Source of the DNA: a candidate division FCPU426 bacterium
Lineage (GTDB): Bacteria; Oederibacteriota; Muellerivitia; Muellerivitales; Muellerivitaceae
Length of the DNA stretch: 64,000 nt
Assembly: GCA_963796105.1 (NCBI GenBank)
Contig: CAWCKJ010000008.1
Location: 96,001-160,000, forward strand
Direction of reading: 5' to 3'
Part shown: in pieces, positions 4,905 through 10,672 of the stretch
Numbering within the stretch: position 1 is the stretch's first letter
How the letters are laid out: every line of letters starts with the position of its first letter
Made by a program: the position numbers and the translations under genes
The notes under the pieces: generated by a model
What the model saw: only the letters and a program-made list of their open reading frames with translations
What the model was told of the DNA's origin: nothing
Databases searched by the model: none

Positions 4905-5130
4905 TAATAGGTAAACTAATCTAGTTAAAGATAGATAATCAGCCACGAAACTCCGAATCAAAAAATGCTATTTCCAAGTTCTAAGCAAAAATTCGAGCCT
5001 TTTTATTGGAATTAATTTAGATTTTTTCTTCAAAAACCCCATATTTTGAAAGCAAATAGCTATATAACCACAGCCTATGGTGGTATTGGTCTTTTTATAC
5101 CCTTTTTCATGCTTCTGTATTAAGTGACCC

Positions 5131-5158
5131 TTGAAATAAAGGAATACATAGGTATACT
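5131..5158 (+). promoter_or_regulatory. Putative IS1595 transposase promoter
   Basis: TTGAAA-16bp-TATACT; the same motif is conserved in the second IS1595 type (57374-57401). Confidence 0.55.
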
Positions 5159-5179
5159 GTCCGCTACGGGAGGTGGTAC

Positions 5180-5715
5180 ATGAGCTACCAGCGGATGAAA
5201 AGCATTAAAATTCTGAGGAAAATCCACACGGAAGAAGAAGCCCGCCAATGGGTGTGGAGATGCCGTTTCGGCGGGAAAGACTTTGTTTGTCCCCAATGTG
5301 AGGGCGAAAGCTTCTGGCAACACCAGGCCAAGCCTGAAGTGAGGGAATGTGACTATTGCCGGAAACGTCTTCGGCTTCGCGCCGGGACGATTTTTGAAAG
5401 CTCCAAGCTGCCTCTTTTAACCTGGGTCAGGGCCATCAGTTTGATGATGCAGGGCAAACGGGGTATTTCGGCCCTGGAACTGAAGCGGCATTTAAATCTT
5501 TCGGATCATTCGGCATGGCTTCTATTGCATAAGATCCGGGAAGGTCTTAGGCAAAAGGACGAAAGCTATACTCTAAAGGGCGTCATTGAGTTGGATGGGG
5601 CGGTTTTTGGGAAAAAGGCCAAGGAAAACCAAGTGGAAGTCTTGGTGGCGGTGGAAAGCAAGGAATGGGTGGATGAGAATGGTTGCAAGAAGGAAAAAGC
5701 GGGTTTTGCCAAGGT
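5180..5715 (+). pseudogene. IS1595 transposase, N-terminal fragment (Zn ribbon CPQC..CDYC, IELD)
   Basis: Identical to the N-terminus of 59392-60300 up to AGFAKV; broken by IS21. Confidence 0.93.
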
Positions 5716-5746
5716 TGTCATTGGCCGCGAGCTTTAACCCCCTAGC

Positions 5747-5820
5747 TGGCCAAGCACTTTGACCCCACCTCTGGCCAGTCACTTTGACCCCCTGTCTGGC
5801 CACCGACTTTGACCCCCTTG
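5747..5820 (+). repeat. IS21 subterminal repeats CTGGCC-N4-CTTTGACCCC x3 (likely transposase binding sites)
   Basis: Three ~25-bp direct repeats resembling the terminal IR. Confidence 0.8.
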
Positions 5821-5878
5821 CCAAGGGCCTCTCTAACCGTCATTCCTTTCTTTTTTCACTTCATGTGAGGAGAACGGC

Positions 5879-7435
5879 ATGACCCGACAAGGGAGGCAGA
5901 GCGACATGGCGACTATTCGTGAGATTTTGAGGACTTACCAGGCCTTGGGCGGGTTCAAACCCACTGCCCGGGCCCTGGGATGCAATAAGCACACGGTCAA
6001 GCAATACGTGCGTTGGGCGAAAGAACATGGCTTTCTCCAAGGGGAACTTCCCCTGGAAAAGGATTTGGCGAAGGCTTGGGAAGACGGCGAAAAATCCACG
6101 CCCGTTCCCGCTCATGCCTTGGAGGCCCTCAAGGGAATCATCCAAGAATGGTTGAAGGAAGATTTCACCTTGATTCGCATCCAGGAGATGCTTCAAGAGC
6201 GGCACGGGTGGAAGGGGAGTTACTCGACCCTGAAGAGGTATACGGAGCCTTTTCGCAATGAGAAACCCGCCTACGTGAGGCTGGAGGTTGCGCCCGGCGA
6301 GGAGGCCCAAGTGGATTTCGGGCTTTTGGGCCGCTTGTGGGACGAGACGCGTGGCAAGCAAGCCAAGGCCTGGGTTTTCGTGATGACCCTTTCCCATTCC
6401 CGGCATATGTACGCCGAGATTGTATTCGCACAGGACGTGAGAACCTGGATCGCCTGCCACCGCCGGGCTTTCGAGTTCTTCAATTCAGTCCCTAAAAAAA
6501 TCGTAATCGATAACCTGAAAAGCGCCATCGTCAAGGCGGCCCTCTATGATCCCTTGGCCAACCGTACCTACGTGGAATGCGCCAACCATTACGGCTTCAT
6601 CATCTCCCCTTGCCGCGTCGCCACTCCACGCCACAAGGGTAAAGTTGAACGCGGCGTGCCCTATGTCCGTAATTCCTTCTTCAAGGGTCGTTCCTTCCAG
6701 GGCCGCACCGATGCCAACCATCAACTCCGCGATTGGGTGATGAACAAGGCAGGTTTACGGGATCATGGCACCACCCGGCTTCAACCCTTGGCCGTCTTCC
6801 AGAGCGTGGAACAGAAGGCCCTTTTGCCCCTGCCTACCGCGGCTTACCATCCAACTTTCTTCAAAGAAGCCACTCTGCACCCCGATTGCCACGTAGTCGT
6901 GGAAGGTTCCTATTACTCGGCTCCCTACCGTCTTCGGGGCCAAAAACTACTGGCCCAATTAACCGACACCACCGTTGATATATTTCTCAAACACGAATGC
7001 GTGGCTTCCCACGCCAAGGCCACACGCAAGGGAACCTGGCGCACCAACCCGGGCCACTATCCCCCTGAAAAAGCGGTCTTCTTGGAACGAACCCCACAAT
7101 GGTGCCTCAAACAGGCCCAGGCCATTGGACCTAATACCCATCAATTAATCCAACTCCTGCTGGAACACTCCCACCCCCTGGACCATCTGCGCAAAGCCCA
7201 GGGCATTCTGCGCTTGAGGGAAAAGTACCTGCCTTCCCGTCTGGAGGCAGCCTGTCTAAGGGCCCTCCATTTCGGAAACTACACGTACCAATCCATCAAA
7301 AACATCCTTCAAAAGAACCTCGATCAAAACCCGTTGGACCCGCCGTCGGATCCTTCACTCAAACCCCAGTCGTCTTTCGATTTCGCCCGGCCCGCGGAGG
7401 ATTTCCTCCGTGCCTTGGCTCTGGATAAAAATTGA
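5879..7435 (+). CDS. istA: IS21 transposase IstA
   Basis: PGEEAQVDFG, F..TLSHSR, DNLKSAI, P.HKGKVER DDE motifs. Confidence 0.95.
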   Translation: MTRQGRQSDMATIREILRTYQALGGFKPTARALGCNKHTVKQYVRWAKEHGFLQGELPLEKDLAKAWEDGEKSTPVPAHALEALKGIIQEWLKEDFTLIRIQEMLQERHGWKGSYSTLKRYTEPFRNEKPAYVRLEVAPGEEAQVDFGLLGRLWDETRGKQAKAWVFVMTLSHSRHMYAEIVFAQDVRTWIACHRRAFEFFNSVPKKIVIDNLKSAIVKAALYDPLANRTYVECANHYGFIISPCRVATPRHKGKVERGVPYVRNSFFKGRSFQGRTDANHQLRDWVMNKAGLRDHGTTRLQPLAVFQSVEQKALLPLPTAAYHPTFFKEATLHPDCHVVVEGSYYSAPYRLRGQKLLAQLTDTTVDIFLKHECVASHAKATRKGTWRTNPGHYPPEKAVFLERTPQWCLKQAQAIGPNTHQLIQLLLEHSHPLDHLRKAQGILRLREKYLPSRLEAACLRALHFGNYTYQSIKNILQKNLDQNPLDPPSDPSLKPQSSFDFARPAEDFLRALALDKN

Positions 7436-7448
7436 GGAGGAAGCATAT

Positions 7449-8228
7449 ATGGAAAATAAACATCAGTTGGAGCCGCACCTGAGAAGGTTAAAACTCGCAG
7501 GTATGTTGGAGACGCTGGAAATCCGAAACCAGCAGGCCATTGAATCCCAGATCGGTTATATGGATTTCCTGGGCCAGTTGCTGTTGGATGAGCTGGAGCG
7601 CCGCCAAGTGGGCCAACTCCAAAGAAGGCTGAAAAAGGCGGGCTTCTCAACCCATATGACTCTAACGGGGTTCGATTTCGCCTTCAACCCGGCCATCAAC
7701 CGGCAACAAATCCTGGATTTGGGTACTTGTTCTTTCGTGGAGCGAAAAGAGAACCTATTTTTCATCGGTCCCTCAGGTGTGGGCAAAACCCATTTGGCCT
7801 GCGCTTTGGCCCATGAAGTCTGCCGCAAGGGTTATGAGGTACTCTTTATCAAGACCTCGCATGCGGCCCAACGATTAGCGGCCTCGCGCGGGGACGGTAC
7901 CTGGGAAAACCGATTCGCATCCTTCCTGAAACCCGACCTCTTGATCCTGGACGACTGGGGTCTCAAGCCCTTCGACACCAAGGTCGCCGAGGATTTTTAC
8001 GACATCATCTGTGAGCGTTATGAAAAGGGCTCCTTGATTTTTACCACCAACCGCAGTCTGCGGGAGTGGCCGGAGCTTTTCGGCGACGCCCTCCTAGCCT
8101 CGGCTGCCATGGACCGCCTGGTCCACCATGCCACTGCCGTCGTCATTCAGGGCCCTTCCTTTCGGACCCGTTCCATGCGCGAAGAAATGAAAAAAGAACA
8201 CAGCAGGGAAAAAGAGGCAAAACTATGA
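7449..8228 (+). CDS. istB: IS21 helper ATPase IstB
   Basis: GAGGAGG RBS; GPSGVGKT Walker A, LLILDDWG, DRLVHH, G.SFR. Confidence 0.95.
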   Translation: MENKHQLEPHLRRLKLAGMLETLEIRNQQAIESQIGYMDFLGQLLLDELERRQVGQLQRRLKKAGFSTHMTLTGFDFAFNPAINRQQILDLGTCSFVERKENLFFIGPSGVGKTHLACALAHEVCRKGYEVLFIKTSHAAQRLAASRGDGTWENRFASFLKPDLLILDDWGLKPFDTKVAEDFYDIICERYEKGSLIFTTNRSLREWPELFGDALLASAAMDRLVHHATAVVIQGPSFRTRSMREEMKKEHSREKEAKL

Positions 8229-8491
8229 GAAACCCATCGTTCGATGCTGTCTTATTCGTGCAATCTTGCGCCTATTGGTTACGGGATTTGCGCGGGACTT
8301 CGTATCATCCAATGTTGGGGAAGCAAAACGCATCTTGTGAAAGGAGTTTGATGGGTCTAAATTAATCTAAAAAAGAGGCCCCGCAAGGCAGGGGTCGAAG
8401 TCCCCGAAACAGGCACCCCTCGAAGTGCCCAAAAGAGGGGGGGCAAAGTAGGCGGCCAGGGGGGTTAAAGTGGCTGGCCAGTGACAAAGGT

Positions 8492-8864
8492 GAAGGTAGC
8501 TATGGAAACCAAGTGGGAGAGCCAGGAATTCGTGAATCAGACTATGGAAAAAGGCTCTTTCCTCAACACAGATGCTTCGCCAGCCTTGCGTGAACTCAAA
8601 GGAGTGGAGGCAGACTACCGGGTGATGGCCAATGACCCGAAAGAGTTGGAAAGTTGGTTGCCCTGGGTACACCGGTTCATTTCCAACGCCAAGGCCTGGA
8701 TCATTGGAACTCATCATGGCGTTGATGCTAAGTATTTAGGCCGGTATCTAAGTGAATATGCCTATCGGTTCAACCGTCGTCATGATCCCGATTCCTTATT
8801 TCACCGTGCTTTGACCGCATGTGCCTTAGCAAAACCCATTACAGCACGGTCACTTTGTGCATAA
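8492..8864 (+). pseudogene. IS1595 transposase, C-terminal fragment
   Basis: NTDAS, HRFISNAKAWI.GTHHGV, YL.EY.YRFNRR; continues the 5180-5715 fragment. Confidence 0.93.
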
Positions 8865-8881
8865 GCATACCCTTTTTCGTC

Positions 8882-8910
8882 TTGACATGGGTCACCTCAA
8901 TCCTTATATT
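8882..8910 (+). promoter_or_regulatory. Near-consensus sigma70 promoter
   Basis: TTGACA-17bp-TATATT. Confidence 0.7.
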
Positions 8911-8928
8911 CGGGCCAATTGTTTACAG

Positions 8929-9224
8929 TTCTCCGGGTTTACCAAGCCAAATATCGCTCGGAGAGGGTTAAAAACCATAGGTTTCGATGTCCGGGGCCTA
9001 TGATCTTCGACCCAAGCGGATTGTGACCACAACCGTTTGGCCGTCGAGGAATTTGTCGAGGGTGGCACTTTTTTGGGAAGTGAACCACGCTCGTATAGTT
9101 CTTCTGCAGTGCGGGAGCGGTTGTAACGCTTCCATGAAGTTCGCAGGTCGGGTGTGGCACTCTTCCCTGAGGAGTGCAGGCCCAAAAGAGGGAAGGCTGG
9201 AGTCCCCCCGGGGATGACGGCCTT
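8929..9224 (+). ncRNA. Candidate highly structured leader RNA (seven consecutive hairpins), family unrecognised
   Basis: Back-to-back stems with many G-U pairs between the promoter and the RBS of 9249; no known riboswitch motif recognised. Confidence 0.55.
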
Positions 9225-9248
9225 AAAAAAAGAATAAGGAGAGAGAGA

Positions 9249-10625
9249 ATGAAGAAAGGACTTTTAATGTTGCTGTTGTCCGGCATCATGGCCTTCGGAT
9301 TTTCGGTGAAAGTTTCTGCCGATACCCGCTTGGATTCCATGTCCGCCGACGTAAGGCAGGTCGATGATCTGGATATCATCTGGATGTATCCAAATAAGGT
9401 ATTGCAATACAAGGATACGGTGGATTTCCGCTTGAACAACATTCAAGGCGCCTATTCCTATGAGACCGTATGGGGTCAGGGATACGAGGAATGGGGTGGA
9501 ATACTCAAGGATACCGGTGATGCCGGAGTCTTGGGTTTATACATCAACCGTCCCTTGAATTATGGCACTGAATATGCCGGTTATGAGGGTTATTGGAACA
9601 CCACCGACAACGCCGGTGATAATAGGTTTGCCAATTATGGCTTACCCTGGACCACTCCTTGGCAATTAGCTGGTTCCAGCCCTTATTTCCCGATGCCTAC
9701 CAATAAATTCGACCTTTTCTGGGCCAAGAACGTATCAGCGGGAGACTTGGGAATTCAAGTCAACTATGCCGATGCTAATCCGAACAACACGGGTTATTGG
9801 AACGGTCAGAACCTGACGGTTTCTTCCCAGTTGATCGGCATCAACATCGGGTTGGGAACCACCTTAGGTTCCTTCAACCAAGCCAACTTTCACTTAAGCG
9901 GTGAGGTCGGTGGAATTGACAACGAGGCGATCTTTCACGAAGCCCCTGCGATGTCCTTGAAGAGCAATGGGATATGGCAATGGCAATTGGGTGGTTTGAT
10001 CCAAACCGACCTCAGCACAGATGATGTTTTGAAGTTGGCACTGGATTTGACAGCTGACCAGTTCGGCTGGGCGGCTTTTACCCAATCTGCTGGAAAAGGT
10101 TTTGAGGAAGCTGATCAGAACCAAGCCGTTACGGCTCTTGTTGGGAACATAGCCATGAACCACAAAATCAGCGGCGGCAAGGGATTGATCAACGCCGGCT
10201 TGATGTTGGGGTGGCAAGGTTATAGCGAAACTGATACGGCTGGGGATATCCTCCAAGACGATTCATGGTTTGTTTTGGCCAATATTTCGGCTGAAACACC
10301 GCTCACCAGCTGGTTGACTTGGCGTTGCGGCTTGATGAAGCCTCTCATTGATTGGGAATATACGAACTATGGAAATGGTGATCATTTCGTCAATGACCCG
10401 ACTGCCCATTATGCTTGGGGCCAGCGTAACTATTCAGTGTTCAGCACTGGCTTGGGTTTCACCGTGGAAAACTGGACTCTGGATACTCAGATGTCAGTTC
10501 AAGCGTTGGACAACCTGATCAGCGATCCGAGCTTGGGTGGTGTGTTTTATGGAACCAACACCCCTGCCGGAAATGGCTATCCCATTGTTGAAATGGTGCA
10601 GGCCGATTTGAAGTACAAGTTCTAA
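9249..10625 (+). CDS. Putative outer-membrane beta-barrel protein / porin
   Basis: AAGGAG RBS; signal peptide MKKGLLMLLLSGIMAFGFSVKVSA; Gly/Asn/aromatic-rich alternating strands; C-terminal ADLKYKF beta-signal. Confidence 0.75.
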   Translation: MKKGLLMLLLSGIMAFGFSVKVSADTRLDSMSADVRQVDDLDIIWMYPNKVLQYKDTVDFRLNNIQGAYSYETVWGQGYEEWGGILKDTGDAGVLGLYINRPLNYGTEYAGYEGYWNTTDNAGDNRFANYGLPWTTPWQLAGSSPYFPMPTNKFDLFWAKNVSAGDLGIQVNYADANPNNTGYWNGQNLTVSSQLIGINIGLGTTLGSFNQANFHLSGEVGGIDNEAIFHEAPAMSLKSNGIWQWQLGGLIQTDLSTDDVLKLALDLTADQFGWAAFTQSAGKGFEEADQNQAVTALVGNIAMNHKISGGKGLINAGLMLGWQGYSETDTAGDILQDDSWFVLANISAETPLTSWLTWRCGLMKPLIDWEYTNYGNGDHFVNDPTAHYAWGQRNYSVFSTGLGFTVENWTLDTQMSVQALDNLISDPSLGGVFYGTNTPAGNGYPIVEMVQADLKYKF

Positions 10626-10635
10626 ATTAACTTTA

Positions 10636-10672
10636 AAAAGCCCTTCTCCTTCTGGAGAAGGGCTTTTTTTTT
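10636..10672 (+). terminator. Intrinsic terminator
   Basis: GCCCTTCTCC-TTCT-GGAGAAGGGC followed by T9. Confidence 0.92.

What the first reader, a model, noticed from the sequence alone, without database searches (positions are those of the whole stretch)
8911..9248. ~330-nt seven-hairpin leader RNA between a consensus promoter and an outer-membrane protein gene
Seen: after TTGACA-17-TATATT the sequence is almost continuously paired. Stems: H1 8929-8965; H2 CATAGGTTTCG/CGGGGCCTATG 8976-9002; H3 TCTTCGAC-CCAAGCGG-TTGTG/CACAA-CCGTTTGG-GTCGAGGA 9004-9050; H4 9057-9093; H5 9104-9146; H6 GCACTCTT/AGGAGTGC 9150-9183; H7 AAGGC..TCCCC/GGGGA..GCCTT 9193-9224. Many pairs are G-U and work only on the + strand, which points to selection on RNA. 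CTTCCCT (9162-9168) can alternatively pair with AGGGAAG (9189-9195), competing with H6/H7 next to the RBS. I recognise no known riboswitch. Inference: a novel cis-regulatory or stabilising leader, or an independent ncRNA.
Basis: partly seen in the sequence, partly recalled or inferred. Interest (0 to 1): 0.72.

Follow-up and report, generated by a model that had tools for sequence, protein, structure and literature searches.

The report
Repeated triloop hairpin in porin leaders
A 330-base folded RNA that Rfam does not list precedes an outer-membrane barrel gene in an uncultured bacterial class, and its most conserved part, a small hairpin repeated up to three times and reused before a second porin-like gene, is likely a protein-binding site that would shield these messages from decay.

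Summary
The leader is real. All seven hairpins are at the stated places, the fold is strand-specific (z -4.9), and Rfam has no match. Promoter, leader and gene are conserved across an uncultured class, and H2, H3, H4 and H6 show compensatory changes. The gene encodes a PopA-like barrel (PopA is the major outer-membrane protein of Bdellovibrio).

The conserved core is a hairpin capped by C(CCU)GAG. It occurs in 34 of 38 leader stretches, in 1-3 copies, with the last copy 34-47 nt before AUG in 31 of 34. The same cap, on freely covarying stems, sits before an unrelated porin-like gene in 7 of 27 orthologous loci. RNase J is found in the class; RNase E/G is not.

Best reading (0.45): a protein binds the cap and blocks 5'-to-3' decay, stabilising envelope-protein mRNAs. 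No ligand is identified. A different refolding (H4 and H6 into one rod) is energetically equal but lacks covariation and leaves RBS access unchanged. Nothing supports an independent ncRNA.

The parts
8882..8910 (+). sigma70-type promoter, TTGACA-17-TATATT
   Evidence: the same pattern anchors 30 of the 38 leader stretches examined
8917..9248 (+). structured 5' leader, about 332 nt (start inferred from the -10 box, not mapped)
8929..8965 (+). H1, 5'-proximal hairpin; a hairpin is predicted here in most relatives but the sequence varies
   Evidence: local folds; not recovered as a consensus helix
8976..9002 (+). H2 hairpin
   Evidence: 7 of 12 pairs with a change on both sides
9004..9050 (+). 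H3 hairpin
   Evidence: 8 of 19 pairs with a change on both sides
9057..9093 (+). H4 hairpin with a U-rich/GGGAAG tip; can also pair with H6 as a long rod
9104..9146 (+). H5, variable spacer hairpin
9150..9183 (+). H6, the conserved hairpin capped by C9165-(CCU)-G9169-A-G
9193..9224 (+). H7, second copy of the module about 40 nt before AUG; cap degenerate here, intact in the sister genome G001
9225..9248 (+). A-rich linker and purine-rich RBS (AAGGAG at 9236)
   Evidence: 16S 3' end read from the genome
9249..10625 (+). PopA-like outer-membrane barrel gene, 458 aa, signal-peptide-like N-terminus, C-terminal Phe
   Evidence: Foldseek E 1.3e-11, TMt 0.69; profile E 8.5e-9
10640..10672 (+). intrinsic terminator (hairpin plus T9)
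   Evidence: a hairpin plus T-run follows all 15 homologues printed

Best explanation
This is the structured 5' leader of a PopA-like outer-membrane protein gene, and its conserved, repeated C(CCU)GAG-capped hairpin is likely a binding site for an unidentified RNA-binding protein that would block 5'-to-3' decay by RNase J and so keep envelope-protein mRNAs long-lived. Shown: the fold, its conservation and covariation, 1-3 capped copies, the fixed distance of the last copy from AUG, the same cap just after the upstream stop codon at a second porin-like locus, RNase J in the class and no RNase E/G match. Inferred: the start site, high expression, that the cap is read by a protein, and that the effect is on mRNA stability. 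In this model the hairpin array hides the 5' end and cleavage sites, and the bound cap stops trimming about 30 nt short of the RBS, leaving a translatable message. KhpA/KhpB are speculative candidates only.
For: Cap conserved on different stems: 34 of 38 leader stretches carry it, 31 of 34 with the last detected copy 34-47 nt before AUG, extra copies often near 80 and 122 nt. In 35 distinct copies 6 of 9 pairs change on both sides, 0 of 500 shuffles reach the covariation score. Second locus (yceI-like then porin-like gene): present in 7 of 27 loci chosen by protein; the 9 cap nucleotides are invariant while 5 of 12 pairs covary, 0 of 500. Two or three copies occur in leaders that lack H4, so the cap does not need H4. 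RNase J matches in 30 of 32 genomes, 26 over the cut-off; RNase E/G in 0 of 32; no CsrA, Hfq or RNase Y match in G000, KhpA/B present. One transcript: an RNA-library contig joins leader to start codon; 9 of 16 metagenome loci examined end 5-22 nt after the stop codon, 7 of these starting inside the leader. Precedent: 5' leaders stabilise mRNA in RNase E-less bacteria (PMC3997798, passages); bound proteins are proposed to define 5' ends by blocking RNase J in chloroplasts (PMC3799425, search listing only).
Against: No ligand, binding, half-life or 5' end was measured. Copies were collected with a cap pattern plus a pairing filter, so cap conservation and percent pairing are partly built in, and the genomes are kin. 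Twenty of 27 second-locus regions lack the cap, and the second-locus hairpin resembles the 5' copy of one genus, so it may stem from one copying event (tree needs 4 changes). No wider regulon: 17 of 20 weaker model hits and 8 of 17 pattern hits showed no consistent context. One genus has a different leader with CCUGA loops in only some members, and nine genomes of other classes with distant homologues show no motif at the gene. The cap of H7 is degenerate in this window. Codon usage did not show high expression. Library type of the short contigs is not given by the tool.
Confidence: 0.45

Rival explanations
1. The cap is a protein-binding site, but the protein controls translation initiation (activation, or feedback repression under envelope stress) rather than decay.
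For: The last copy is fixed 34-47 nt before AUG, at the edge of the ribosome footprint, in 31 of 34 leaders; both target genes encode barrels.
Against: At the second locus the cap is 100-147 nt from AUG and tied instead to the upstream stop codon; extra copies lie up to 276 nt upstream.
Confidence: 0.2
2. Protein-free stabiliser: the array protects by structure alone, and the cap is kept for an RNA-RNA contact such as a kissing loop with the H4 tip.
For: H4 GGGAAG is complementary to H6 CUUCCC, with one compensatory change (G017); the two central G-C pairs are 19 of 19.
Against: The cap is equally conserved in leaders without H4 and at the second locus; the outer loop-loop pair is broken in 3 of 19.
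Confidence: 0.13
3. Conformational switch (riboswitch- or thermometer-like): H4 plus H6 interconvert with a 26-bp rod that hides the cap.
For: The rod is the lower-energy fold in 11 of 15 cores, within a few kcal/mol, and equal in the full window leader (-149.9 versus -149.3). 92% of rod cells pair. The U residues that must pair with G in one state and A in the other stay U (columns 44 and 46: 19 of 19; column 157: 18 of 19).
Against: No covariation above shuffles for the rod (99 of 500) against 0 of 500 for two hairpins. H4 resembles a diverged duplicate of H6, which gives cross-pairing for free (inference). RBS accessibility is the same in both states, no conserved anti-SD partner exists, and no terminator lies in the leader.
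Confidence: 0.12
4. The 3' arm (UGAGGAG) is read by base pairing, either by the 16S tail (STAB-SD-like roadblock) or by a Yfr1-like sRNA.
For: The 3' arm is more conserved than the 5' arm. Many copies could pair with the anti-SD at -8 to -13.6 kcal/mol, close to hairpin energy in the weaker copies. UGAGGAGU complements 8 of the 11 nt of the Yfr1 motif (PMC2190773, passages), and Yfr1 targets porins (PMC6778093, passages).
Against: The arm is base-paired with covariation; several copies have weak SD likeness (-2.7 to -5.9); none of the 14 non-coding antisense seed sites among 188 in G000 has the seed mostly unpaired (at most 4 of 9 nt).
Confidence: 0.07
5. An independent non-coding RNA that happens to lie upstream.
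For: Length and stability; two of three laid RNA runs had contigs on the leader only, from a relative.
Against: No terminator; every strong model hit lies before an ORF with the conserved RBS; the X2 contig continues into the start codon; hairpin content differs between genera.
Confidence: 0.03

Closest known systems
5' stabiliser leaders of long-lived bacterial mRNAs (cryIIIA, ermC, atpE: PMC3997798 passages; E. coli ompA 5' UTR: reference title seen there, details recalled)
   Same: Long structured leader on an envelope-protein mRNA, a 5'-proximal hairpin, strong purine-rich RBS, RNase J background.
   Different: Here a sequence-specific triloop cap is repeated 1-3 times and shared with a second operon; the known cases rely on a 5' hairpin or a bound ribosome.
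Protein roadblocks to RNase J (PPR proteins on chloroplast mRNAs; PMC3799425, search listing only)
   Same: A sequence-specific site near a cistron start or just after an upstream stop codon, in an RNase J system.
   Different: The site is a hairpin cap in a bacterium and no binding protein is known.
Yfr1/Yfr2 sRNAs of cyanobacteria (Rfam RF01701; PMC2662882, PMC6778093, PMC2190773, passages)
   Same: Link to porin mRNAs; the 3' arm is complementary to part of the Yfr1 motif.
   Different: Yfr2 has a 12-nt loop and an unpaired 5' motif; here a 3-nt loop with the motif paired; RF01701 matches 0 of 32 genomes.
CsrA/RsmA repeated hairpin sites (recalled)
   Same: Several short hairpins with one conserved motif in a leader.
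   Different: The loop is CCU, GGA is paired or absent, and G000 has no CsrA match.
PopA superfamily (Bdellovibrio Bd0427; PMC12228718, passages)
   Same: The downstream protein: predicted 16 barrel strands, N-terminal helical plug, long last loop; sequence and fold match.
   Different: Oligomer state untested; the words UTR and transcript do not occur in that paper's main text.

Membership tests
Any Rfam 15 family | Score at or above the gathering threshold | tested here: not met
   0 hits in the window and in 20 related loci; best E 2.8 in permissive mode
Riboswitch / attenuator | Expression platform (terminator or conserved anti-SD) | tested here: not met
   No + strand terminator in the leader; SD partner differs among 30 leaders; SD access equal in both folds
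Riboswitch / attenuator | Two mutually exclusive folds, both under selection | tested here: inconclusive
   Rod is isoenergetic and 92% compatible but has no covariation above shuffles
Riboswitch / attenuator | Ligand binding | not testable with these tools
   Needs in-line probing
5' stabiliser leader | Co-transcribed with the coding sequence | tested here: met
   RNA-library contig of a relative spans leader into start codon (one study); contig end pattern. Moderate strength.
5' stabiliser leader | Extends mRNA half-life | not testable with these tools
   Needs reporter or rifampicin decay data
STAB-SD | Accessible SD-like sequence without a start codon | tested here: inconclusive
   SD-like arm present but paired; duplex energies -2.7 to -13.6 kcal/mol against hairpins -6.6 to -18.2
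Yfr2 (RF01701) | 12-nt loop on a bulged stem; model match | tested here: not met
   Triloop; 0 of 32 genomes, control genome positive
CsrA target | GGA in loop and CsrA in the genome | tested here: not met
   Loop CCU; no PF02599 match in G000, 96.8% complete
REP-like dispersed repeat | Many intergenic copies per genome | tested here: not met
   0-7 model matches per genome at E <= 1, only 150 candidates scored per genome; 24 such hairpins in all of G000, most in ORFs
PopA superfamily (protein) | 16 strands, plug, loop 8; similarity to PopA | tested here: met
   16 barrel strands by my count from DSSP; top four Foldseek hits are PopA; profile E 8.5e-9
PopA superfamily (protein) | Radial oligomer with lipid chamber | not tested
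   A pentamer exceeds the complex tool's size limit

The most novel reading that the evidence does not exclude
A two-membraned class without RNase E/G, Hfq or CsrA controls its barrel proteins through a new RNA-binding protein that reads CCU-triloop hairpins: copy number tunes mRNA lifetime, and in the main clade H4 acts as an internal antisense arm that refolds into a rod to hide the site, giving an envelope feedback switch with no sRNA.
Probability: 0.15. Interest if true: 0.78.

Novelty: new variant of a known kind. Interest (0 to 1): 0.52.

Why it matters
It adds an uncatalogued, covariation-supported RNA family. It also gives a 21-30 nt bait for finding a new RNA-binding protein in a lineage that has an outer membrane but appears to use RNase J without RNase E/G, Hfq or CsrA. 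How such bacteria set the levels of major outer-membrane proteins is not addressed by the enterobacterial sRNA model (recalled). A portable hairpin that stalls RNase J would also be a useful expression part. The range found is one class and the mechanism is inferred, which limits the score.

Tried and rejected
Rfam: nothing. Viral contigs: 0 matches to the H6 pattern. H1 5' arm as anti-SD: appears in the window's MFE, but partners vary among 30 leaders. Wider regulon: 3 of 20 weaker model hits were informative (G001 and G043 at the second locus only gave 2; G000's copy came; the other 18 regions showed no consistent context), and 8 of 17 pattern hits were scattered. A complementary hairpin after the second porin gene exists only in G000; other CTCAGGG hits there lie in the next gene's coding start. 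Antisense sRNA seed in G000: no convincing candidate. Codon-usage test of expression: confounded by regional GC, rank 950 of 3229, uninformative. RNA runs: contigs only, one study, no start or level information; uncovered parts prove nothing. The VIA-align second look never ran. Literature: three searches combining S-layer/leader/stability, triloop/porin/RNA-binding protein, and RNA motif/CMfinder/outer membrane returned 0 papers with all five terms; these are narrow and cover open-access text only, so absence from print is not shown. Supplementary tables of PMC12228718 and of RNA-motif screens were not read. The lineage name was not established; one search covered a guessed phylum name and was not used.

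Full report
Observation. The + strand folds at -136 kcal/mol with z -4.92 and the - strand at -106 with z -2.64. Rfam gives nothing in the window, in permissive mode, or in 20 related loci. The leader is single-copy in the genome.

The gene. The ORF 9249-10625 has no Pfam match. Its model (pLDDT 78.6) shows an N-terminal helical plug and, by my count, 16 barrel strands. The four best Foldseek hits are PopA of Bdellovibrio (E 1.3e-11), and a profile of 22 homologues finds PopA by sequence (E 8.5e-9). PMC12228718 (passages) describes PopA as the major outer-membrane protein of Bdellovibrio and notes highly expressed relatives in Fibrobacter. That this protein is abundant here is an inference; codon tests were uninformative. 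Homologues occur in 26 of 32 genomes of the class. A terminator follows the gene.

Conservation. I collected 38 leader stretches from loci found mostly through the protein; some are near-duplicates and all are kin. Thirty begin with the TTGAC...TA-T promoter, giving leaders of 218-353 nt, and all 30 fold better on the sense strand. In 14 leaders of the main type, 23 of 64 consensus pairs change on both sides, including 7 in H2 and 8 in H3. For H4 plus H6 in 19 sequences, 97% of cells pair and 0 of 500 shuffles reach the covariation score. The tool warns that relatedness inflates such scores.

The module. Across genera the other hairpins turn over, but one unit persists: a stem capped by C(CCU)G-A-G. 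A pattern-plus-pairing scan found it in 34 of 38 stretches (I discounted two spurious hits, and three stretches had none by the filter). There are 1-3 copies. The last detected copy is 34-47 nt before AUG in 31 of 34; in the other three, including this window, a weaker copy sits at that place by eye. Upstream copies often fall near 80 and 122 nt. Of 44 distinct hits I aligned 35, leaving out two spurious, one truncated and six near-identical ones; 6 of 9 pairs change on both sides. The filter builds in part of the cap conservation and pairing. However, a similar, stricter filter finds only 24 such hairpins in the 5-Mb genome, so near-universal presence at a fixed distance is not chance.

Second locus. 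A perfect copy lies at G000 C4:413411, between a yceI-like gene and a porin-like gene. Among 27 loci chosen by that protein, 7 carry the cap shortly after the upstream stop codon and 20 do not. In the seven, nine cap nucleotides are invariant while 5 of 12 pairs covary. On a tree of 25 of these proteins (two truncated rows left out) the label needs 4 changes, which may be one gain and losses. In G019 the leader is also duplicated before two lipoprotein-like genes, the first with NHL repeats. No broader regulon emerged, although the model search scored only 150 candidates per genome and missed four of the seven known second-locus copies. Nine genomes of other classes with distant homologues show no motif at the gene.

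One transcript. No terminator lies in the leader. In RNA runs of one study, a 300-nt contig of a relative covers 9021-9187 and continues into the RBS and start codon. Of 16 metagenome loci examined (of 26 found), 9 end 5-22 nt after the stop codon and 7 of those begin inside the leader. This is the pattern expected from assembled transcripts, but the tool does not give their library type.

Switch tests. A better candidate is the rod formed by H4 with H6. It is the lower-energy fold in 11 of 15 cores and equal in the full leader, and 92% of its cells pair, but covariation is not above shuffles (99 of 500). It does not change RBS access, and no conserved anti-SD exists. The bases that would have to serve both folds are invariant or nearly so, so I keep it as a minority reading.

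Mechanism. RNase J matches in 30 of 32 genomes and RNase E/G in none. G000 has KhpA/B but no match to CsrA, Hfq or RNase Y; it is 96.8% complete, so absence is not proven. In such a system 5' protection is a main determinant of stability (PMC3997798, passages). A fixed cap on variable stems, repeated, reused at a second envelope operon, and placed either just upstream of the ribosome footprint or just after an upstream stop codon is what a protein roadblock would look like. The chloroplast PPR case is the nearest precedent (PMC3799425, listing only). Protein binding and the stability effect are inferred, not shown. KH proteins as ligand are speculation; the preprint 10.64898/2026.10.12.757534 (abstract only) gives no motif.

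Comparison. It works like a 5' stabiliser leader and is not a member of any Rfam family, of Yfr2 (PMC2662882 passages), or of the CsrA target class. Earlier scan notes describe recurrent hairpins in outer-membrane leaders of other phyla, but no earlier finding matches this sequence, and I could not compare their loops except through the Yfr2 test.

Verdict. A real, previously uncatalogued RNA family as far as Rfam and three narrow literature searches show. New variant of a known kind; interest 0.52.

Noticed in passing
window 5109-8868: An IS1595-family element (21-nt imperfect terminal repeats, 10-nt direct repeat at 5099 and 8869) is inserted 3 nt upstream of the repeat that abuts the -35 box, and is itself split by an IS21 element (istA 5879-7435, istB 7410-8228). 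It leaves the core promoter intact but separates it from its upstream region.
   Followed up: partly
window about 5037-5083; 45-75 nt upstream of the -35 box in relatives: Two roughly palindromic 16-nt boxes about 31 nt apart recur upstream of the promoter in many relatives. They resemble tandem NrdR boxes (recalled, untested); G000 encodes NrdR. In this genome the IS has moved them 3.8 kb away.
   Followed up: partly
class-wide; G000: No RNase E/G match in 32 genomes and no RNase Y match in G000, leaving the main decay endonuclease of this class unexplained.
   Followed up: no
L100 (G019:C107:26500-33500): The leader is present three times: with its promoter before a lipoprotein-like NHL-repeat gene, as a promoter-less H4-H6 part before its tandem paralogue, and before the PopA-like gene.
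   Followed up: partly
L101 (G022), L005/L024 (G011), L015/L026 (G014): Tandem arrays of two or three PopA-like genes; in the stretches printed, only the first gene has the promoter and capped hairpins.
   Followed up: partly
L075, L081, L083, L086, L070, L197 (G041 and similar contigs): A different leader and RBS type; RBS-proximal hairpins carry CCUGA loops in L075 and L081 but not in the others.
   Followed up: partly
G000 C4:412653-415833: Conserved operon of a secreted YceI-like protein, a Porin_O_P-like barrel and a third exported protein, in 25 of 32 genomes by the porin; function unexplored.
   Followed up: partly
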